This document shows positions 1,446 through 53,212 of a DNA stretch of 64,000 nucleotides, piece by piece. The position numbers and the translations under genes are program-made. Numbering within the stretch: position 1 is the first letter of the stretch; each line of letters begins with the position of its first letter. Below the pieces are notes generated by a model, which was given only the letters and a program-made list of their open reading frames with translations, did not search any database and was not told the DNA's origin. Source of the stretch: the human T2T-CHM13v2.0 reference genome, Homo sapiens; assembly GCF_009914755.1 (NCBI RefSeq), contig NC_060930.1. The stretch is one strand, 5' to 3'.

Positions 1446-2264
1446 ACAGAAGCAAGTTGCTGGAGGCAGGCTTTTGGGACCACAGACTGGGAAGATGATA
1501 TCTTCACCAGTGAAGATTTCCAAGGCCAACATCACATGGCCAAATTGCATCACCCCATGGCCCTGGGCTCTTCTCCCTGTTCACACTAAAACTCAGAAAC
1601 ATTTATTCATGGGGGGAGTAGTCAGCACACTGGTTGCTCAGGTCTGAGAATGCCAGGGCTGAGCTAGCAGGGTTTGCAGGTCCCAAGGCAATTTGCATCT
1701 CCTGTTGGAAGTCTTCCTCATCAAAGCAACGGAAATCAATGCAGTAAATAGTTATAATGAACTGACCTGCTCACACTCCCTGTCTCTTCCTGAGGAAGAG
1801 GAATCATGAGAGACACATTGTTTCCAAATCCTTCACCTCTTTCCCCCTCGCCTGATCCTCCCACAGGGAATCCTCTTTGCTCCTGTCAACAGTGTTTGAG
1901 ATGTTTCAGAGTTTTTATTGGATCTTCATTGTAGCTCTGTCTGTGAGGATTCAGTGAAGCTAAGATTTAAGGGCCAGAGAGAGTTGAAACTTCTACCAAG
2001 CATCAGCCATGGCTGCCCTGCTTTCCAGAGTACTGTCCACGGACCTCTGGGCCTCAGGGACTAGAGAATGTCAGGGGACCATCTCATTTCATACATGTAA
2101 AAACTGAGGCACGGAGAGGGCAGGACCACCCAGCACAGGATCAGCACACCTCTCCAACATCAGTACACCCCACCTTTTCAGGCAGATACAGGAATCTCCT
2201 CCGCAGCAAAGTGTTGATAGGTGGGAAGCAGTGCTGTGATGCCCTTAGCTTTGGCATCCAAATG

Positions 2265-2515
2265 CTTGAGTTTTAATGCCTGACCCACCATTTCCTTGCT
2301 GTACAAGACCTTGAGAAAGCTAATTAACCTCTCAGTAACTGTTTTCTCATATATAAAACAGGGATGAAAATAAAAGTATGTGCTCCATTGAGTTGTTGGA
2401 AGCTTTAATAAACACAGGAAAAAAATTAGAATTGTGTCTACCATGTAGTAAGTATTCAATAAATGTCAGTGACTATGCCCATGATGAATATGGTGAATAT
2501 GATTATGATGATCAT
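2265..2515 (+). mobile_element. MIR with a degenerate (ATG)n-like tail
   Basis: gaccttgagaaagctaattaacctctc...catgtagtaagtattcaataaatg followed by atgatgaatatggtgaatatgattatgatg. Confidence 0.75.
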
Positions 2516-3189
2516 GGGCATTATCCCTGGTGCTAAGAGTCACTTCTACAGGAGTTTAGCTTGCCCTGACCTAGAACATTGAGGCAGGGCATGAACTCAA
2601 TGTTGCACTGAGAACCAGTCTAACACAGGAATGTTTTCTCTGTTTCACAGGTGTCAGTCATGTTCTCTGGATAAATGATAAGATTGAAAGTCCTTGAAGG
2701 CAGGAGACAGCCCCAGATATCGTTTTGTTGTCTGACACAATACCAAGCACAAATGATGTGCCTAAATCCTGGGTCTTTAACCCAAGGCCATCTACATATG
2801 CCCTGGGCCTGCCAGCTCATGAAAACCAGCCTCTGTGGCAGTTGGGGTGCTAAGGAATTGCTCCAGTTGAGCTTCACTGGTTTTTACTCTTGGCTGTCAT
2901 GCTTGGATCTCTTGATTATGTTCCATCAGTTCACCCCCTGCCTCTGGGCTGAAAGATTTGGTGTTCTTTCTAAGTTTTCTTGCATGATTTGTGGCTTAGA
3001 ACGTCTTTCCCGTACATCTCTAGCCCTTTCCATCTCAAATGTTGACTCAGATTATTGGCTCAGGGCAAAGCCACTGGCTCCAGCTCTTAACCCTGTAGAA
3101 TCTCACCTATCCCTGGCACCCAACATAGACATCCACCCCTTCAACTCCACCAAGCTAGGGAGTAGAGAGTAGTTGTCTTTTCCATCCAT

Positions 3190-3632
3190 TCTCTCCCTTC
3201 CCCTCCTTGTCTAATTTCTAAGAGTTAAGAGTGGGCACTTTTCCAACATTTCCGTGGTTACGGGTAACTATGTCACTCAATCCTGGCCACATGAGGTGGG
3301 ACACTAGCCCACTGGAAGAGTTTTCTTCTTAATAGAAGAGAGAAATCTGTAAGAATAATCCCCCACTGTTCCTACCTTGGGTGCTATTATGTGAGGCCTT
3401 GATGCTTGAACCTGTGGCAATGATCTTGCAACATGAGGAAAGGGTCACAAGAATTGCAGAGATACTGACTGGAGCCCTGAGCTGTTAAATAAACCAACTC
3501 CAAACCAATGGGAATGGGGTATGGAACCACCAGTCTCTAGATTTTCTGTGACAAGGAACAATTAAGCTTCCATATTTCTTAAGCCTATTTTAGTCAAGAG
3601 CTCAGTTAGTTGCAGGCAGAAGCATTCCAAAG
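3190..3632 (+). mobile_element. ERVL-type solo LTR (LTR33-like)
   Basis: gatgcttgaacctgtggcaatgatcttgcaacatgagg...ttaagcc...gttagttgcaggcagaagcattcc; related copy at 23740-24175. Confidence 0.6.
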
Positions 3633-3781
3633 TTTTATCAAGTAAGCATCAATTTGCCTATCACAAACTTTATCAAGGTGTTGGTAGATTCTACCTTGTA
3701 GACATAATGTGATCTACTAGGAATCTATGTAGAAAATTCAAGAATCCAAGAATTTGGGAGAAAACTTAAAAGTCGTCCATA

Positions 3782-4249
3782 TCTGACATATAGATCAATG
3801 GAATAAAATGGAGGGTCCAGAAACAAACTCTCATATTTATGGTCAACTGATTCTCAACAAGGGTGCTAAGAAAATTCAATGGGGGAAATAATAGGCTTTT
3901 TGCCAAATAGTGCTAGATAACAGAATATATCCACATGCAAAATATGAATTCAGAACCCTATCACACACCATATAAAAAAATAGCTCAAATGGATCAAATA
4001 TCTAAATGTAAGCACTAAGACTACTAAACTTTAAAAGAGAATGCATGTATAAATCCATGACCTTGGATTAGGCAATGGTTTCTTAGATATGACACCAAAA
4101 GCAATCAAAGAAAAAGACATATAAATTGGACATTAACAAAATTTAAAAATGTTGTGCTTCAAAGAACATCATCAAGAAAATTTAAAAAACCTTGAATACT
4201 GTATATATTTTCTCCAAAAAAGTTACACAAATAGCCAATAAGCTCACAA
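3782..4249 (+). mobile_element. Old L1M (L1MB-like) ORF2 3' fragment
   Basis: gacatatagatcaatggaataaaat...ggtcaactgatt...tttctccaaaaaagttacacaaatagccaataagc matches L1 ORF2 C-terminal consensus. Confidence 0.85.
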
Positions 4250-4384
4250 TGTGCTTCTCTGCTGAGCCCAGAGAGAGCAAGATACTACTACTCAACTAGC
4301 CCTTTAGACAGCCACCACAAACACATACGAACGGGCACATGGGATGAAATGTGTTTACCATTCCCAATCTAGGACAACGGTACC

Positions 4385-4443
4385 CAAAGGAAATGTTGGT
4401 GACTATGCCCATGATGAATGCTTATAAACCAACATTTCCTTTG
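4385..4443. repeat. Perfect 16-bp inverted repeat with a 27-nt loop
   Basis: caaaggaaatgttggt (4385-4400) / accaacatttcctttg (4428-4443). Confidence 0.95.
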
Positions 4444-4619
4444 TTTTGTAAAACATTTGAAGCCATGTCCATGGACACAGAGGAAACCATGACGGCACCA
4501 GAATGTCTATTTCTGTCCTTGAGATGATGCTAAGACTAGGATATCCCTGTGTCTAGGAACTCACTACTATTGTACTGGTGTAGCTCAGTCCATCTTTGAG
4601 GAACAAAAAGAAGTTCTAT

Positions 4620-5778
4620 TTTTTTATTTCAACTTTTATTTCAGATTCAGAGGGTACATGTGCAGGTTTGTTGCAAGGGTATATTGCATGATGCTGAGGT
4701 TTGGGGTACAATTGAACTCATCATCCAGGTAGTGAGTATAGTACCCAATAGGTAGTTTTTCAACCCTTGCCCCTCTCCTTCCATCCCTCTCTTGTAGTCC
4801 CCAGCATCTAGTGTTCCCATCTTTATGCCATGTATACTCAATGTTTAGCTCCCGCTTATAAGTGAGAACACGCAGTATTTGGTTTTCTGATTCTGTATTA
4901 ATTCTCTTAGGATTATGGCATCCAGCTGCATCCATGTTGCTGCAAAGGACATAATCTCATTATTTTTTATGGCTGTATAGTATTCCATGGTACATATGTA
5001 CCACATATTATTTATCCAATCCACTGCTGATGAGCACCTAAGTTGATTCCATGCCTTTCCTATTGTGAATAGTGCTGTGATGAACATACGAGTACAAGTG
5101 TCCTTTTGGTAGAATATTTATTTTCCTTTGGGTATATCCCCAGTAATGATATTGCTAAGTTGAATGATAGCTCTATTTTTAGTTATTTGAGAAATCTCCT
5201 AACAGCTTTCCACAGTGCCTGAACTAATTTACACTCCCACCAACAGTGCAAAAGCATTGCCTATTCTCCGCAACCTCGCCAACATCTGTTGTTTTTTTAC
5301 TTTTTAGTAATAGCCATTCTGACTGATGTGAGATGGTATTTCATAGTGGTTCTTATTTATATTTCTCTGACGATTAGTGATGTGGACCATTTTTTATATG
5401 TTTCTTGGCCACTCGTATGTCTTCTTTTGAAAAGTGTCTGTTCATGTCCTTTACCCACTGTATAATGAAGTTGTTTTTCACTTGTTGATTTGTTTAAGTT
5501 CCTTATAGACCTTTGTCAGGTGCATACCTTGCGAATATTTTTTCCCTTTCTGCAGGTTGTCTGTTTACTCTGTTGATAGTTTCTTTTGTTGTGCAGAAGC
5601 TCTTTAGTTTAATTAAGTCCTACTTGTCAATATTTGTTTTTGTTGCAATTGTTTTTGAGGACTTAGTCATAAATTCTTTGCCAAGGCCAATGTCCAAAAG
5701 GGTATTTCCTAGATTTTTTTCTAGGGTTTTTATAGGTCGAGGTCTCAGATTTAAGTCTTTCATCCATCTTGAGTTAAG
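4620..5778 (-). mobile_element. L1PA15/16-like element, 3' part (host of the nested L1)
   Basis: Poly(T), L1 3' UTR and ORF2 end (MFITALFTIGKAWNQ); resumes at ~12560. Confidence 0.9.
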
Positions 5779-28861: not shown

Positions 28862-31269
28862 GTCTAACAATCCTGAGAACTCCATGCTCTCTCAGCTGAG
28901 CCCACCCGTAAGCCAGGCCAGCCCAGCCCAGCTGCCAGACATATGAGTGAAAAAACTATTGGAAGTGGATCCTCCAGCCCCCAGTGGTTGAAAGCACCCC
29001 CATTCCAGTCCTCCCCTGAAAGATCCACCTCTGTGCTTTTTTCTAACTTCTGACCCACAGAATTTGGGATCACAATAAAATAGTGGTTGTTTCATGCCAC
29101 AAAGCTTTGGAGCAGTTTTTTACATCGTCATAGACAACCTGAAGAACTAGTAAACTCTCATGTTGGCTAATATTCTTGGGCTCCCTTCCCCCAGGTGACC
29201 AATGCCAGGAGTGTGTGACTTGCAGCACATGTGCTGAAGGTGGAGAGAGGTAGCCTCTGCCTCCTCACACTGCACATCCCCTCACCTGCCTCCAGTGTGG
29301 TCAGTTCACATAGGCTTTCACTCCTCTGCCCAGGCAAAGTTCTCCTCTCTCCTGCCACGGTCCTTTGTTTATATCGTGAGTGCAGGCTTGTCACACGGAT
29401 AGCAACCAGATTATTTATGTTTGTCCTCACTAGACTACAGGCTCTAAAGGGACACAGCTGTATTCTATGCATTTCCCTGTGCTGAGGCCTAGCACCTAGT
29501 GGGCGTGAAATAAATACGTGTGGAATGAAACTGTCAAAGACCATGTGACCAGCTGGCCCTGACCCCCTGCTAACAAGCAGCAGACCCAGAACCCCTTTCT
29601 GGTTCTCCTCCAGGCAGGGCACAGTTGTTTCCTATCTGAGCAGGCTCCATTTGCTTCACATCAGCCCAAGAACAGGGAATGGGAAATGCCTTGTGCTGCA
29701 GGAGGGAAGACAAAGTAAGCCAGAGAGCACTTGGCCATCTGGGGCTGGGAGCGGAAGAGAATGGAACCATTCTGGAGAGCCAGACATTTGTTTTGTAGTT
29801 GTTGCCTTTGTGAATGTACATGTCCTGAAACCCTGGTTAATTTTCTTGTTCAAACATTGGTTTAAAATTGCTGGCTCTAGGAGAGATACTGTCCTTCAGC
29901 AAGTTCTGTTATAAACTTTGCAACTCCAAGGTCTGATTCAGCAGCAAGCTGGAAAAGTTCCTGGTTGCTAAGAGACCAGAGAGCAAATTAGCAGCTCACA
30001 AAAGACCCAGCTAAGACCAGTAAAAAATAAGACAAAAGAAAACAAGGTAGGAAATGGGCCTCCTCAAAATCAAAATAAGGTAAACAAACTGGCTAGGAAA
30101 ATGTCTGATTGGAAAAGACAATTATAAGTATTCTTCATGCTGAAGTAAAATGCACTATAGGTAGCTAAACTCTATCTTTGTCTTTTTGTCACTTGAAGAA
30201 AACAGCAGGGGAGCCCCTTTCTAGTCCTGAAATTCCGGATCTATGAGTCAGAGGGAAAAACAAACTGTCCCAGTTGATAAGGAGGAAAGAAAAAAGTGAA
30301 ATAGGCTGCCTCTTTTATGAGCTCTCCCTGCCAGGACGGTGAATGGGCTACCTGGGGTGGTGGCCCAGAAACATTCCTGCAAGCAAACAAAAGCCTCCCC
30401 CCAGGAAAGGTTTCTGATCACTGCTGGTCCAAGGCTCAGCCGCAACAGAGGGCTCTGACCCCCACAGGACTTGGCCAGACACTTCAAGATCCCATCTGGC
30501 AATCAAGCATGAGAATTCAGGTACTTGTAATAAGAAGGGGCAAAGAGAAAAGTACCAAATAGGTCCCAGGTATTAAATATTTATTTTGTTAAAGTGCCTC
30601 TATAGCTATGATTTTTAGTAATTTCTTTTCTGGTCAGACAATCTAGTAAAATATTATATTAAAATTATTTTTAATCAAAAACAGAAAAAAGCATGCCAAT
30701 CACTTACCTCTGATGGAAATTCATTCTCCAAGACACACAGTTTTCCTAAGAACCTACTGCTTAGCTGGACAAAATAGTAGGAAAATGCTCCAAGTGGAAA
30801 TTACCAGCCTCTTGAGGGAGGAGCTTGAAAATCTTAAGTGATCACAGAAAAGTCACAGTCATCTGGGTTTTGGAGACCAGAGAAGAAATGAAGAAGGGCA
30901 AAAAAAAAAAAAAAAAAGAAAAAAAGAAAAAGATGGGGTGTGGGGAGGAAGATGGGGAAACATGGAGCTACAAATTGGGAGAAAATTAAGGCAGCCAGTA
31001 GGCATATGTCAGGGAGCTATGGCGTGATATGCCTAAGAACTATGTGACTGAATAGCCTCCACTTATCAATATTTGTTGGACAGCAAAAGGATTTCAGAAT
31101 ATGATGGATCCAACAAGCATGAAATAATCTTTAGGGGAAAAAATTACAATTCCCCACATGGCAGCTTCCTTCAGATCTTTTCTGACAATCCTGTTTGTCA
31201 GATTTCTAAATCGCATGCAACTGCTATATTTTAGGCAGAGCTGGTATCTTCCTGGAAAAAGACCGTCCC

Positions 31270-37049: not shown

Positions 37050-38745
37050 CAAGAGACTAAAAGTTCTTAATTATAGTCCCTGGCCCATACTTTGAATTCT
37101 CTTGGCTTTTATTCCTGAGGGCAGGCCTCATGAAATCACCCCTTTCCATCACTTTAAGGGAAGGACCATCCTGCCTCATCCTCAGGAAGTAACATTTTTC
37201 TGCAAGGTTAGCCACCAACAATTGCCTTTAGGGTCATCAAATTTTTGAGACTCTCAAGCCCAGAAGATGCCCTGGTTCCCTGGCTTCTAAGCCTCTTGCG
37301 TCCCTAATTTCTTACTACAACTTACCCTTCCATTCTTGCACTATTTTTTTCTAATCTAGCTATAAGAGAGATTCACTTAGTTTCTTTAGCTAAATTTCCA
37401 TTTTTCCTCTTCAGCTGGATCAATGCTATTTTAAAACAACAACAATACCAGGAAGAGTAAATGAGAATCTAACGAAAATAGTTATCTGCAGGGTGTGAAT
37501 AGAAATGTAGAAATGTAGCAAAAGGGCTAGGGATCGGAGGGAGACATCTTCTAGTATACCGTCTTATATATGTTTGATTTTTCAATCATTTAAATGTTTT
37601 TACATGTTTAGAAACAAAATTAAATTACCAAGAGCGAAAAAAAACTAAACCTAAAGATGAGTTTTAACAAAAGCAAATGAAACCTAATTCTGTATCAAAT
37701 CATATAGAAAAATTCTAATTCAAAGAATTTGGGACACAGTACCCTGACTATACACCCTTAATGGAATATATTCTAAAGAGAATAAACACCACAAAGATGC
37801 CTTAAACCTGACTGAGTAGGTTTGTTCTTAGTAGTATAACTGGTGCAGTAACTCTGAAATGATTTGTGTGTGTTGTAGAATAGAGAAAGTTAATGAATAT
37901 GTTGGCATTTTGAGAACCAAGTTCTCACTGTGAGAGAAAGAACACATGAATAGGGATTGTGGGAAGGGAAGGAAGACCCTGGGGTGTTGGATTTGAATTG
38001 GAAGTATCAAAGTAAATACAAGATTTCTTTTTTTGAAAAAGTATTTGCTAGCTCTATCCACTGAAAGAGCCTAGAAATAACAATGCTCCAATGGAATGAG
38101 TGCACCAAGCACCCAGAATTTGGTTTTTTAATAGTGTTCTCCATTGAAAGGAGCCAGGAGCCTTGGGAGAAATGACTGATCCGATTCTGGAGCAGAGACA
38201 GTACAGGGTAAGCCTAGGATGTCAGGTTGCGCTAAAAATCAAGAAAGTGCTCAAATTCTAATGGTGACATGTCAAAGGAGCACGGGAGCCAAACTGAAAG
38301 GGCTCCCACCAGGCAAATTTTGGACAATTTGAGTTTTAATATTTGTAATTAATTATGACACATGGATTTTTTTTAAGTTCCCCAGTTCATGGTGATATTC
38401 AAAAGGGTGGGGAAACTCTTCTTCATGAAAGAATGCCTGTTAATGAAGTAGAATGATAGAATTAGACAATTACCATTTTACAACGTAGTGAGTTACTCGG
38501 CTAAGAATCATCGGTGTATTCTGTTACCATTGAATAAAAGGTTGGTGAGATATTCATGCAGTTCAAATATAACCCCTTCAGATTACTTAGTAAGTAAAAA
38601 GGGGCAAGGGTGCAATGGAGAACAGTGGTGGACACCACTTAACCAAATGATCAAACTCAGCATCTAATAACGGGACCAACTGACATGAAATGGCAGCCAA
38701 TTTCTCTACAATAGAAATGGCACGGATTCTTCAAAAATCTCAGGA

Positions 38746-39827: not shown

Positions 39828-41445
39828 CATGGCTAATGTAAGTGAAACGTTCCAGGTGTTCATCGTACTCTTCTTTCAACTCATTCATAGATTTGAAACT
39901 TTTTGAAATTAAAAATTGAAGTAGGAGAATGCTCTGGCTTCACCTCAAACCATTTAAGTCAAAATCTCTAGGGGTCAGCCCAAGTTTCTTTTATAGCATT
40001 TCTCCAGAAGTGTTTACTGTGCATCCAGGGTTGAGAACTACTGGCCTACCTGATTCATGATGATGTCCAGGCCCTCAGACCCTGCCTCAGCCCCCAAGGA
40101 CCCTGAAAATAAGTCTCTTAAAGGTCACAGGGGCATCTGAGTCTCCAGCAGGCCCTTGCAGCCCTGAGTCAGTAGCCCAGGCTAAGGAGGAGAGAGTAAA
40201 GAGTCTTCATAGAAGTGTCTGCTTAGCATAGGAACCCTGACTGCTTTTAGGTCCTTCTGGCTTCCTCCTGCCAGGCCTCTCCCTTCTCAGAGGCCCCTCT
40301 GAGATAACCCTCATTCTGCCCCTTCAGGCTGCCTCTGAAAACCTCAGGCCTCTCTTCCTCCTCCCTTGTTCATAAGGCCTCCAGCAAGGGACCTTGCATG
40401 GCACGCCCTCAATAAATGAGTGCCAGGTGAGCCGAGGTGGGCTCACTCACACTGTGCCTCTCTCACTGTCACCCTCAGGGGGGAGGAGGAAAAGCCCATA
40501 TCAAACATGGGCAAAGGGTTTTACTTTGTCCAAAAAAAAAAAAAAAAGCAGAAGCTGAAGGTCAAAGAAGCAAAGAGAGTGGGAAGGACTCTGTTCTTTA
40601 CAAAGAACAGAGTCATGACACCTCACACTGGACCCTTGCTAGGTGTAGGTGCTGTGGCCGCACTGAATCTGTGTTATCTCATAAAATCAACAGCCTAGCC
40701 TTATGGGGTGGGTCATACTGTCATTGTCACTTCACACCATGTGTCCCCAGCATCACACAGCTGGAACCTCAGCAGTCTCGGACCAAAGCCCACACCTCTA
40801 GCCATGGTGCTAGACTGCCTACATAGGACTTAAGGAGGAGAAGGAAAGCAAGAGCCAATATTGATGAGGCGCCTACTAAGATGATCTTGTTGAATTCTCT
40901 CTGCAGCCCTGTGAAGTCAATCTTATCTTCTTTTGATGAAGCTGAGCAAATGGACTCTGAGATAAAGTAATTTCATTCCATCATGTTGAACAAGCCTAAA
41001 ATGTATCATGATCTGCATTGTCTTCTGTATGAATGGCAATCTCTGGAGTTGTGCAACCCAGGATCAAGAGTGACTTGCCCAGGGCTATGCTGCCAGTAAG
41101 GGATGGTCTCTGGATTTGGAAGCAAGGTCTCTCAGACTTTGGCCTCCCTGGAAAAGCCCTGCTGTCCCCTCACCCCCACCACCTCAAGTGTTCTGTTACC
41201 AGACATCTCTCCGCAGGGATCAGAACCTCCCTTCTGCAGGGAGAAGTGAGTCTTCCACTGCGCTGCCATCAAGGAGGTGTCAGAACCCTGAGCTCTTCTA
41301 GACAGACCTCAGCTGTTGAACATGTGAAGAACATGCCTTTCTGCAGATGATGAAGTGGGATGTTGGGGATGAGAAAGCAGAGGCAGAAAAGTCTGAGGCA
41401 TGCCCCCCACAATTCAGCAGACTGTGGGGTAGTGGCACTCATAGC

Positions 41446-43517: not shown

Positions 43518-44878
43518 ACTACGATAGAGGTGGGAATGGAGGCCAGAGGAGGCAGGAGAGTGGATGAATCTGCAGCCCAGATTCATCTAGAATGGATAAA
43601 TGGAAAGGGATGAAAGGGATGGAAAAAGATGGAAGCCAAGAGAGAAAGAGATCAGAAACATAAATTTTGGAACCATCAGAGTCAAGATAGCCTTTAAAGC
43701 CAGAAGTAGATGAGATCAATGAGGGAGCAATGGTAGACAGAGAGAACCTCTGAGGTCTGCAGGGCTCCAACCTTCAGAGGTTGAGGAGACAAGGAAGGAC
43801 CCCTAAAAAGGGGTCACAGCTAGAGACAGGACATTGAGGGAGAGGGCATCCTAGAAGTCCACACTGCAGAAGATCTGAGGGGAAATGGGAAGAGAGGTCT
43901 GGAGAGAGCAGTGTAGACAGCTCCCCTACAGTGGAGTGTGTGCCTGGGAGTCGGCATCCCAGCTGCAAGGAGAAGCCCCAAACGGTATGGCCATGTTTCT
44001 TTTATCTCTGGGTCTCCCCAACACACAGTAGGTTCTCAATCAAAATCTACTGAGTTGGCATCAGTTAGATGTCCTGTTTATGGCTGAGGCAAAGTCTGGA
44101 GATTTCCCCTACCTCTCAGGCCCTCGCTGCAGGCCTCTGACACTCCAGGGATAGCTGGCAAGCCCACAAGGCCTCCCTGAGGGTCCTTCTCTCTCAGAAA
44201 ATATCAGCACATGTGTCCAGCAGGGCCTTTGATGGCTTCACACAAGAGGAGAGTCATGTGTGCATTCCTGGCTCTCTGGACAAGAAATAAATGTTCAGGC
44301 GGAGAGGGAGAACTTGGCTGAAGTGGAGGAGGGAATTGAAATCACTGAACAAAATAACAGCAACACCAATAACAACCATTTATTGATCTCCTGTTCTGTA
44401 GCAGACGCTAGGACAAATGCAGGGCATTTGTTGACATTGTCTTTCATCTCAGTCCAGTTCAGTCCATCTCCAGTTACCTGGTGAGGGAGGGGCTGCAAAC
44501 CCCACCCTACAATGAGTTACCCTGCTGCCTGAGGCCACATACACAGTAGCTCCAAGGCTGATGTTCCTCAACCACTGTGTGAAGATTTATCATTGAAGAA
44601 AGGAGAGATGGAGGTAGGAATAGCAAAGGCTAAAGACAAAGCTACCCCAAGCAGCAGCATCTCCTTCCATGACTTCAACTCCACTGACACCAGGCTGACC
44701 TGGGCTTTCCCTTTGCCTTTCCCACCATCACCTTTGCTAGCTGGTGGGACTTTCAGGCCAATGGGTTACATGTTTAGAAACAAAATTGGGCAGTGGGCTG
44801 GGGCCAGCAACCACAGAACCTTCCTCCTCAGCCATTGTCATTAAGTAGGCAGAGATTTCCTGACCTTGTCAGTAGCCC

Positions 44879-52904: not shown

Positions 52905-53212
52905 AATGTAGTGGCATGCTCTGAGGATTCTCAAGAAGTCCTATGGCGAGCCCCACATGCAGAAAAACTAAAAACCCCTGGTCAATAATCAACACCAACT
53001 TGCCAGCCATTGACTGGGTCACTGTGGAAGTGGATCCTCCAGCCCCAGTCAAACCTTCAGATGACTGCTGCCTCATGGAGTCCCTGAACCAGGAACTGCT
53101 CCTGACTCCTTGAGCCACAGACACAGTGAGAGATTATAAATGACTACTGTGTGAGGCCACTAAGTTGGAGGGGTTGGTAATTTGTAATACAGCAATAGAT
53201 AATTCATACAGC
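52905..53212 (+). mobile_element. MLT1G/H-like LTR fragment
   Basis: ggaagtggatcctccagccccagtcaa...aatttgtaatacagcaatagataat. Confidence 0.7.

What the first reader, a model, noticed from the sequence alone, without database searches (positions are those of the whole stretch)
4385..4443. Perfect 16-bp hairpin whose loop is an exact copy of a site 1.9 kb upstream (guide-in-a-stem architecture)
Seen: arms 4385-4400 and 4428-4443 are perfectly complementary. gtgactatgcccatgatgaat (4399-4419, 21 nt) is identical to 2469-2489, and the match extends to 27/29 from aaatgt (4391 vs 2461). The copied part fills the 5' 19 nt of the loop, and a T-rich run follows the stem. By rough estimate each feature alone is unlikely by chance in 64 kb, and here they coincide. 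Inference: either a templated insertion with fold-back synthesis (polymerase-theta / template-switch signature), a structured RNA presenting a sequence matched to a nearby site, or non-native sequence. Function is not shown.
Basis: partly seen in the sequence, partly recalled or inferred. Interest (0 to 1): 0.8.

Follow-up and report, generated by a model that had tools for sequence, protein, structure and literature searches.

The report
Template-switch scar: hairpin with copied loop
A perfect small hairpin in a human intron carries in its loop a short patch copied from the edge of an old SINE 1.9 kb away, which is best read as a harmless scar of error-prone DNA repair or replication and not as a working RNA.

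Summary
Arms 4385-4400 and 4428-4443 pair perfectly over 16 bp round a 27-nt loop. No arm of 16 or more appeared in 0 of 200 shuffles. The 21-mer 4399-4419 equals 2469-2489, and at up to 1 mismatch these are its only two places in the 3.1-Gb genome.

New here: the upstream site is the last 16 nt of a MIR SINE (2236-2476, E 1.3e-25) followed by 13 nt of unique flank. The downstream site carries this same junction but no MIR body. So a short patch was copied, most likely from upstream to downstream.

The order is a same-sense copied patch, 8 nt of unknown origin, then a 16-nt inverted copy of the sequence just before. This matches the published mix of in-trans, untemplated and snap-back synthesis by polymerase theta, and template-switch mutation and MMBIR scars.

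Rfam gives nothing significant, and the stem looks too short for a microRNA precursor. There is no support for a guide RNA or for foreign sequence. Timing, and whether it was one event or two, need primate and pangenome alignments, which are not held here.

Verdict: an ordinary but clean mutational scar, of low interest.

The parts
4385..4400 (+). 5' arm of the perfect hairpin (CAAAGGAAATGTTGGT). Its last 10 nt overlap the copied patch.
4428..4443 (+). 3' arm (ACCAACATTTCCTTTG), an exact reverse complement of 4385-4400. Inferred to be a fold-back (snap-back) copy.
   Evidence: the mechanism is inferred
4391..4419 (+). 29-nt patch matching 2461-2489 at 27/29. 4391-4406 equals the last 16 positions of the MIR profile; 4407-4419 equals the unique flank of the upstream MIR.
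4399..4419 (+). Exact 21-mer shared with 2469-2489, found at only two places in the genome.
4420..4427 (+). 8 nt (GCTTATAA) between the patch and the 3' arm, with no convincing template nearby.
2461..2489 (+). Inferred source of the patch: MIR end (2461-2476) plus unique flank (2477-2489).
2236..2476 (+). MIR SINE copy, positions 17-260 of a 270-position profile built here from 29 other genome copies.
   Evidence: E 1.3e-25; alignment
2467..2529 (+). Imperfect inverted repeat at the source: arms 2467-2485 and 2511-2529, 16/19, with an 11-nt perfect core. The source segment was also copied once in inverted orientation.
   Evidence: I2; E 0.003; DNA fold z -2.83

Best explanation
The feature is a neutral mutational scar of template-switching DNA synthesis. 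It is not a gene or a regulatory device.

A 3' end at about 4390-4400 left its own template. It paired with the end of the MIR element 1.93 kb upstream, through the shared AAATGT..GT, and copied 19-29 nt across the junction of MIR end and unique flank. It then came off and gained 8 nt of unknown origin. It folded back on itself and copied 16 nt of its own fresh strand in reverse complement, which made the perfect stem. It was then joined to the right-hand flank.

Shown: the anatomy; the genome-wide uniqueness of the 21-mer; that the patch spans a MIR-end/flank junction; and that no MIR body lies downstream.

Inferred: the direction of copying (upstream to downstream), that it was one event and not two, and the enzyme (polymerase theta end joining, or replicative template switching/MMBIR).
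For: 1. The stem is perfect over 16 bp and far beyond chance.

2. The 21-mer occurs only at these two places in 3.1 Gb at up to 1 mismatch. At up to 3 mismatches there are 43 places against 10 for the reversed control, none forming a family. My hand estimate for random sequence is about 54.

3. The upstream site is a real MIR. The word CAATAAATGTYAGTGAYTAT has 107 genome places against 2 for the control. In 30 fetched loci the sequence after that word differs from locus to locus. A profile of 29 of those loci hits 2236-2476 at E 1.3e-25 and ends at 2476.

4. None of the profile's 33 window hits at E up to 10 touches 4200-4600. Searched alone, 4244-4604 gives only 4391-4406, the last 16 profile positions. 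A shared junction of SINE end and unique flank without the SINE body means copying, not independent insertion.

5. The flanks of the two sites do not align. Local alignment adds 3.5 points to the core, and blastn finds only the 29-mer.

6. Published mechanisms give this layout. Polymerase theta switches among untemplated, in-cis snap-back and in-trans templated extension within one product (PMC4912351, passages). Templated inserts arise by repeated priming, and about 3% map to distant sites (PMC5068794, passages). Template switching creates perfect inverted repeats and hairpins in human DNA (PMC5453318, passages). Human germline MMBIR-type insertions can use up to five templates (PMC8421209, passages).

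7. At 4397 the copy has T, the MIR profile's consensus state, where the source now has C. This fits a copy made before a later change in the source. The 3' arm pairs with the copy's own TG state, as expected if fold-back followed the copying.
Against: The direct template lies 1,930 nt away. In the C. elegans data about 85% of polymerase theta inserts are primed within 10 bp of the break and only about 3% map far away (PMC5068794). The MMBIR detector in PMC8421209 considers only templates within 100 bp.

No ancestral empty site was seen, because no other human or primate genome is held here. So insertion, direction and single-event origin all rest on inference.

The two mismatches (TG against CA) need either a mismatched primer, polymerase errors or later substitutions.

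The 8-nt filler has no demonstrated origin. Its best local matches (ATAAACCAAC at 3489, CCAACATTTCC at 3243) are matched or beaten by 111 of 3000 random 24-nt segments.
Confidence: 0.7

Rival explanations
1. Two separate events at one place. A local template-switch mutation made the 16-bp inverted repeat. Independently, before or after, a short patch templated from 2461-2489 was inserted into what is now the loop, perhaps because the hairpin made the site break-prone.
For: Template-switch hairpins are common. 53,666 putative events, 31,007 of them forming a new stem, were reported in human gene regions on the primate lineage (PMC10710096, passages). Another perfect 28-bp-arm hairpin of complex sequence turned up in about 122 kb of other human DNA held here. 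A second isolated 22-nt patch copy exists in this window with no hairpin beside it, so the two kinds of event can occur apart.
Against: It needs two rare events within 60 nt. The arm and the patch overlap by 10 nt, and the 3' arm pairs with the patch's own TG state, which a single run of synthesis explains directly.
Confidence: 0.17
2. Remnant of a larger duplication, or of gene conversion, between the two sites, of which only 29 nt can still be recognised.
For: Both copies lie on the same strand 1.93 kb apart. There is a weak gapped similarity further 5', giving a score of 28.5 against 25 for the core.
Against: No MIR body lies downstream. The flanks are unalignable on both sides while the core is 21/21. 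Neutral decay does not leave one perfect island. Gene conversion needs flanking homology, and none is seen.
Confidence: 0.05
3. A functional structured RNA, such as a young microRNA-like hairpin or a stem-loop that presents a sequence matched to the upstream site.
For: The fold is stable on both strands. The site lies in an intron of the lncRNA LOC101929555 (hub annotation). Template switching has given rise to at least 18 human microRNA genes (PMC10710096, passages).
Against: The best Rfam match at the hairpin is mir-16 at 16.7 bits against a gathering score of 36.5, E 5.8. The stem is 16 bp, or about 20 with the lower helix, round a 27-nt loop. From recall, that is short for Drosha and Dicer substrates. 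The loop has the same sense as the upstream site, so it cannot pair with a transcript of that site made from the same strand. Four papers mention the lncRNA and none in its title or abstract; I saw the listing only.
Confidence: 0.04
4. An assembly artefact or sequence foreign to the genome.
For: None beyond the oddity of the structure.
Against: Window 4360-4560 is 100% identical to the held genome at its stated place. The surroundings are ordinary old repeats.
Confidence: 0.02

Closest known systems
Short template-switch mutations (four-point model; Loytynoja and Goldman 2017, PMC5453318; Walker et al. 2021, PMC7954356; Monttinen et al. 2023, PMC10710096)
   Same: One event copies a nearby stretch in reverse complement and creates a perfect inverted repeat, or hairpin, in otherwise unstructured DNA. 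At 16 bp the arm exceeds the 14-bp cut-off those authors used for confident calls.
   Different: That model has one switch and return, with an inverted copy only. It does not account for a same-sense patch taken from 1.9 kb away. The derived state could not be shown here against an outgroup.
Polymerase theta end joining with templated insertions (Kent et al. 2016, PMC4912351; van Schendel et al. 2016, PMC5068794)
   Same: One junction holds a mosaic of an in-trans templated stretch, an untemplated stretch and a snap-back (reverse-complement) stretch. The sizes are tens of bases, and there is possible microhomology at the switch (AAATGT..GT).
   Different: Most such templates lie within about 10 bp of the break; here the direct template is 1,930 nt away. 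Dependence on the enzyme, the break and any accompanying deletion were not observed.
MMBIR-type templated insertions in the human germline (Osia et al. 2021, PMC8421209)
   Same: An insertion of 10 bp or more that is an inverted copy of a template within 100 bp. Complex germline events that use several templates are described.
   Different: Their detector does not look for templates kilobases away, so the direct patch lies outside the class as they defined it.

Membership tests
Template-switch mutation (four-point model) | A fragment that is the exact reverse complement of nearby sequence, 14 bp or longer | tested here: met
   16/16 arms, 27 nt apart. The 14-bp threshold is from PMC5453318 (passages).
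Template-switch mutation (four-point model) | Derived state relative to a closely related genome (a mutation cluster in the alignment) | not testable with these tools
   The held genome has no relatives here (header).
Polymerase theta templated insertion | Insert identical to sequence elsewhere on the same molecule, in direct or reverse-complement form | tested here: met
   21/21 direct copy and 16/16 inverted copy.
Polymerase theta templated insertion | Template close to the junction (about 85% primed within 10 bp) | tested here: not met
   The direct template is 1,930 nt upstream. The snap-back template is adjacent. About 3% of inserts map to distant sites (PMC5068794, passages).
Polymerase theta templated insertion | Microhomology at the priming junction | tested here: inconclusive
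   AAATGTTGGT against AAATGTCAGT is 8/10 with a matching 3' GT, but this cannot be told apart from copied sequence.
MMBIR templated insertion (MMBSearch definition) | Insertion of 10 bp or more, inverted, with its template within 100 bp | tested here: met
   The 3' arm is 16 nt and its template ends 27 nt away. That it is an insertion is inferred.
microRNA precursor | Match to a curated family, or a long enough stem plus processed reads | tested here: not met
   mir-16 at 16.7 bits against 36.5. The stem is 16 bp plus a 4-bp lower helix. Reads are not testable here.
C/D-box snoRNA (upstream site 2469-2543) | Match to a curated family, with C and D boxes next to a terminal stem | tested here: not met
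   snoR28 at 22.1 bits against 45, E 0.85. By eye, CTAA stands where CTGA would be, and 6 extra nt lie between stem and C box.
MIR SINE (upstream site) | Significant match to a profile of genome copies over most of the element | tested here: met
   2236-2476, E 1.3e-25, positions 17-260 of 270. The name MIR is my recall from the sequence type, not a database label.
MIR SINE (downstream site) | The same profile match | tested here: not met
   No hit among the 33 in the window. Only the last 16 positions match when 4244-4604 is searched alone, score -3.3, E 0.84.

The most novel reading that the evidence does not exclude
Short patches of about 20-30 nt, copied in the same sense from templates kilobases away, may be a frequent and under-described class of human germline mutation.

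This 64-kb window holds two such patches, each unique in the genome: 2469 copied to 4399, and the 22-mer at 37600 and 44766. The published scans read here look only for inverted copies or for templates within about 100 bp.

Here one patch is caught in the same run of synthesis as a fold-back. Its donor is itself a quasi-palindrome (2467-2529), which hints that structure-prone donors are preferred.
Probability: 0.25. Interest if true: 0.45.

Novelty: new member of a known kind. Interest (0 to 1): 0.2.

Why it matters
The locus is a clean natural example in which a distant in-trans copy, a filler and a snap-back copy can each be read base by base. The donor can be identified because the patch spans a SINE-end/flank junction.

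It shows how a perfect hairpin with a 'meaningful-looking' loop can arise with no function. That is a caution for scans that treat such coincidences as design.

If kilobase-range short patches prove common, indel and mutation-cluster models that only look near the break would need widening.

Tried and rejected
1. Repeat-family word. Rejected: the 21-mer has 2 genome places at up to 1 mismatch and no family at up to 3.

2. Both sites as independent MIR ends. Rejected: there is no MIR body downstream, and the non-MIR 13 nt are shared too.

3. snoRNA at the source. TGATGA boxes and a GTGACT/AGTCAC stem are visible, but Rfam stays below threshold and the box spacing is not canonical.

4. microRNA family at the hairpin. 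Below threshold.

5. Further local templates for the filler and the 3' arm (3489, 3243, and 2285-2304 inverted). These are at chance level: 111 of 3000 random segments do as well, and my hand estimate for a 16/20 match in 3 kb is about 1.7.

6. Empty-site test through paralogous repeat copies. Not possible: 4244-4604 has no other copy at the sensitivity.

7. Link to the 5'-truncated L1-like repeat that starts near 4605. It lies about 160 nt away, so it was not pursued.

The 124,988 bases of loci already held were used instead. That sample is small and centred on repeats.

Full report
**1. The observation**

- The repeat finder on 2000-5000 reports arms 4385-4400 and 4428-4443, 16 nt, 100% complementary, 27 nt apart.
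- It also reports a 29-nt direct repeat, 2461-2489 against 4391-4419, at 93% identity. Within it the 21-mer from 2469 and 4399 is exact.
- In the whole window only 2 perfect hairpins have arms of 12 or more and loops of 3-60: this one, and a 12-bp one at 40587-40614.
- Base composition predicts 0.0008 hairpins with arms of 16 or more, and 0.19 with arms of 12 or more.
- In 200 shuffles within 500-nt blocks, none gave an arm of 16 or more. The mean count of arms of 12 or more was 0.12.
- Folding energies are well beyond shuffled controls. RNA + strand: -25.2 kcal/mol, z -4.46, 0 of 200 as good. DNA: -15.4, z -4.22, 0 of 200. RNA - strand: -24.9, z -3.59, 2 of 200.
- The 'T-rich run' after the stem is only TTTTGT.

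**2. The 21-mer is not a repeat word**

The held genome is 3.1 Gb in 24 contigs, and the window sits at C6:40796001-40860000.
- At up to 1 mismatch the 21-mer occurs twice, at the two window sites, against 0 for the reversed control.
- At up to 3 mismatches there are 43 places against 10 for the control. Two have 2 mismatches and the rest have 3. Several are copies of one another in duplicated regions, and none suggests a family. My hand estimate for uniform random sequence is about 54.
- A DNA search with 4360-4560 finds only itself, at 100% identity, plus its own inverted arm. So the stretch is part of the assembly as held and has no paralogue at that sensitivity.

**3. What the upstream site is**

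- A DNA search with 2430-2570 found one other place, C14:56590439-56590484, 89% identical over query positions 4-47. The local alignment to that locus runs over window 2267-2476.
- The word CAATAAATGTYAGTGAYTAT has 107 genome places at up to 1 mismatch against 2 for the control.
- In the 30 loci fetched, the 60 nt before the word are visibly related, while the sequence after it differs from locus to locus.
- I built a profile from 29 of these loci, leaving out the window's own. It hits window 2236-2476 on the + strand at E 1.3e-25, profile positions 17-260 of 270. It also hits 32 other places in the window at E up to 10.
- From the sequence type I recall this family as the MIR SINE. No database label was available.
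- So 2461-2476 is the end of a MIR copy, and 2477-2489 (GCCCATGATGAAT) is the unique DNA next to it.

**4. What the downstream site is**

- None of the 33 profile hits touches 4200-4600.
- When the interval 4244-4604 is searched alone with all filters off, the only hit is 4391-4406, AAATGTTGGTGACTAT. It aligns to the last 16 profile positions (245-260), score -3.3, E 0.84.
- The flanks of the two sites do not align. A gapped local alignment adds 3.5 points to the core match. blastn with word size 7 finds only the 29-mer between the regions.
- The downstream site therefore carries the junction of MIR end and unique flank without the MIR.
- Independent SINE insertions cannot share a flank. Neutral decay of a larger duplication would not leave one perfect 21-nt island. 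So a short patch was copied.
- The whole element exists only upstream, so I infer that upstream is the donor.

**5. Anatomy of the inferred event**

Reading the + strand:
- Left flank ...GGTACC.
- 4385-4400, CAAAGGAAATGTTGGT.
- 4401-4419, GACTATGCCCATGATGAAT, which with the preceding GT is identical to the donor.
- 4420-4427, GCTTATAA, with no convincing template.
- 4428-4443, the exact reverse complement of 4385-4400.
- Right flank TTTTGTAAAAC...

The donor reads AAATGTCAGT before the 19 nt, and the acceptor reads AAATGTTGGT. That is 8 of 10 with a matching 3' GT. Either this was the mismatched primer-template pairing for the switch, or the copy began at AAATGT and carries errors or later changes.

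The MIR profile consensus at these two positions is T then A. The donor has C then A, and the copy has T then G. So each copy differs from the consensus by one transition. That fits a copy taken when the donor still had T.

The 3' arm pairs with the copy's own TG. This is what fold-back synthesis straight after the copying would give. The inserted length is 43 or 53 nt, depending on where the switch is placed.

**6. Mechanism and literature**

I read passages of these papers, except where stated otherwise.
- Kent et al. [quoted passage not shown] This gives short duplications and short complementary tracts.
- van Schendel et al. 2016 (PMC5068794): templated inserts arise by repeated priming and template switching. 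About 85% are primed within 10 bp of the break, about 3% of mappable inserts come from distant sites, and the error rate is about 1 in 30.
- Loytynoja and Goldman 2017 (PMC5453318): short template switches create perfect inverted repeats and hairpins in human DNA.
- Monttinen et al. 2023 (PMC10710096): 53,666 putative events in human gene regions on the primate lineage. Of these, 31,007 formed a new stem.
- Osia et al. 2021 (PMC8421209): about 100 germline MMBIR-type insertions of 25 bp or more per person, some using up to five templates. Their search is limited to inverted templates within 100 bp.
- For Walker et al. 2021 (PMC7954356) I read the abstract. For PMC8794818 I saw only the search listing.

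The present scar fits these processes in everything except the 1.93-kb distance of the direct template.

**7. Age**

No substitution has hit the roughly 70 informative sites (32 in the arms, 38 in the two copies of the 19-mer). With recalled neutral rates of 0.5-1.0e-9 per site per year, the median expectation is 10-20 million years and the 95% upper bound is 43-86 million years.

The event is thus probably much younger than the MIR it copied. That MIR is well diverged from the profile (alignment).

**8. Function**

- Rfam at E up to 10 gives 10 matches in 2000-5000, all far below their gathering scores. At the hairpin the match is mir-16, 16.7 bits against 36.5. At the donor it is snoR28, 22.1 bits against 45.
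- The loop has the same sense as the donor, so it is not a guide against a same-strand transcript of that site.
- The only annotated transcript across the site is the intron of the minus-strand lncRNA LOC101929555 (hub annotation). Four papers hold that name and none in the title or abstract; I saw the listing only.
- Expression data could not be consulted.

**9. Base rates**

- Together with the window, that is 2 complex perfect hairpins of 16 bp or more in about 186 kb. This is far above random expectation and in line with the published abundance of template-switch hairpins.
- In the window, 207 exact pairs of 18 nt or more exist, counting both orientations. Five have dissimilar flanks. Two of those five carry what I recall as Alu words, and one extends to a repeat of about 210 nt. 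The remaining two are truly isolated: this 21-mer, and a 22-mer at 37600 and 44766.
- The 22-mer is also unique to its two places in the genome. At 44766 it sits as an AT-rich block between GGG and GGG in GC-rich DNA.
- So short same-sense patches from kilobases away may not be rare.

**10. Context**

- An old L1-like repeat covers 3800 to about 4190, at 73-77% identity to thousands of copies, with a further 35-nt match to 4209-4243.
- A younger one starts near 4605 and runs past 5100 at 82-84% identity.
- The donor segment also has an older inverted copy 42 nt downstream: 2467-2485 against 2511-2529, 16/19 with an 11-nt perfect core. The DNA fold gives z -2.83, with 1 of 200 shuffles as good. 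The same stretch has therefore been used as a template twice.

**11. Verdict**

It is a new example of a known kind of mutational scar. Interest is low, apart from the hint that kilobase-range patch copying is under-described.

Left open for lack of other genomes and expression data: the ancestral state, one event against two, polymorphism, and transcription.

Noticed in passing
window 37600-37621 and 44766-44787: An isolated exact 22-mer (TTACATGTTTAGAAACAAAATT) on the same strand, 7.2 kb apart, with no flank homology. These are its only two places in the genome at up to 1 mismatch. At 44766 it is an AT-rich block between GGG and GGG in GC-rich DNA, so it looks like a second short templated patch.
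   Followed up: partly
window 2467-2485 / 2511-2529: The donor segment has an older inverted copy 25 nt away (16/19, with the 11-nt perfect core ATGCCCATGAT/ATCATGGGCAT). It includes MIR-end bases, so it was made after the MIR inserted. It also gives weak snoRNA-like and microRNA-like Rfam scores below threshold.
   Followed up: partly
window 40587-40614: The only other perfect hairpin in the window: 12-bp arms (GACTCTGTTCTT/AAGAACAGAGTC) with a 4-nt loop.
   Followed up: no
L008 43-104 (G000 C1, near 13,904,234): A perfect 28-bp-arm hairpin of complex sequence with a 6-nt loop, found by chance in a locus fetched for another reason.
   Followed up: no
window 28928-29137 and 52995-53202: An exact 22-mer (TGGAAGTGGATCCTCCAGCCCC) shared within a weak alignment of about 210 nt. 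Probably two copies of an old repeat family that was not identified here.
   Followed up: partly
window 3800-4243 and 4605-5100+: Two L1-like repeat pieces of different age (73-77% and 82-84% identity to thousands of genome copies) bracket the 360-nt single-copy interval that holds the hairpin.
   Followed up: partly
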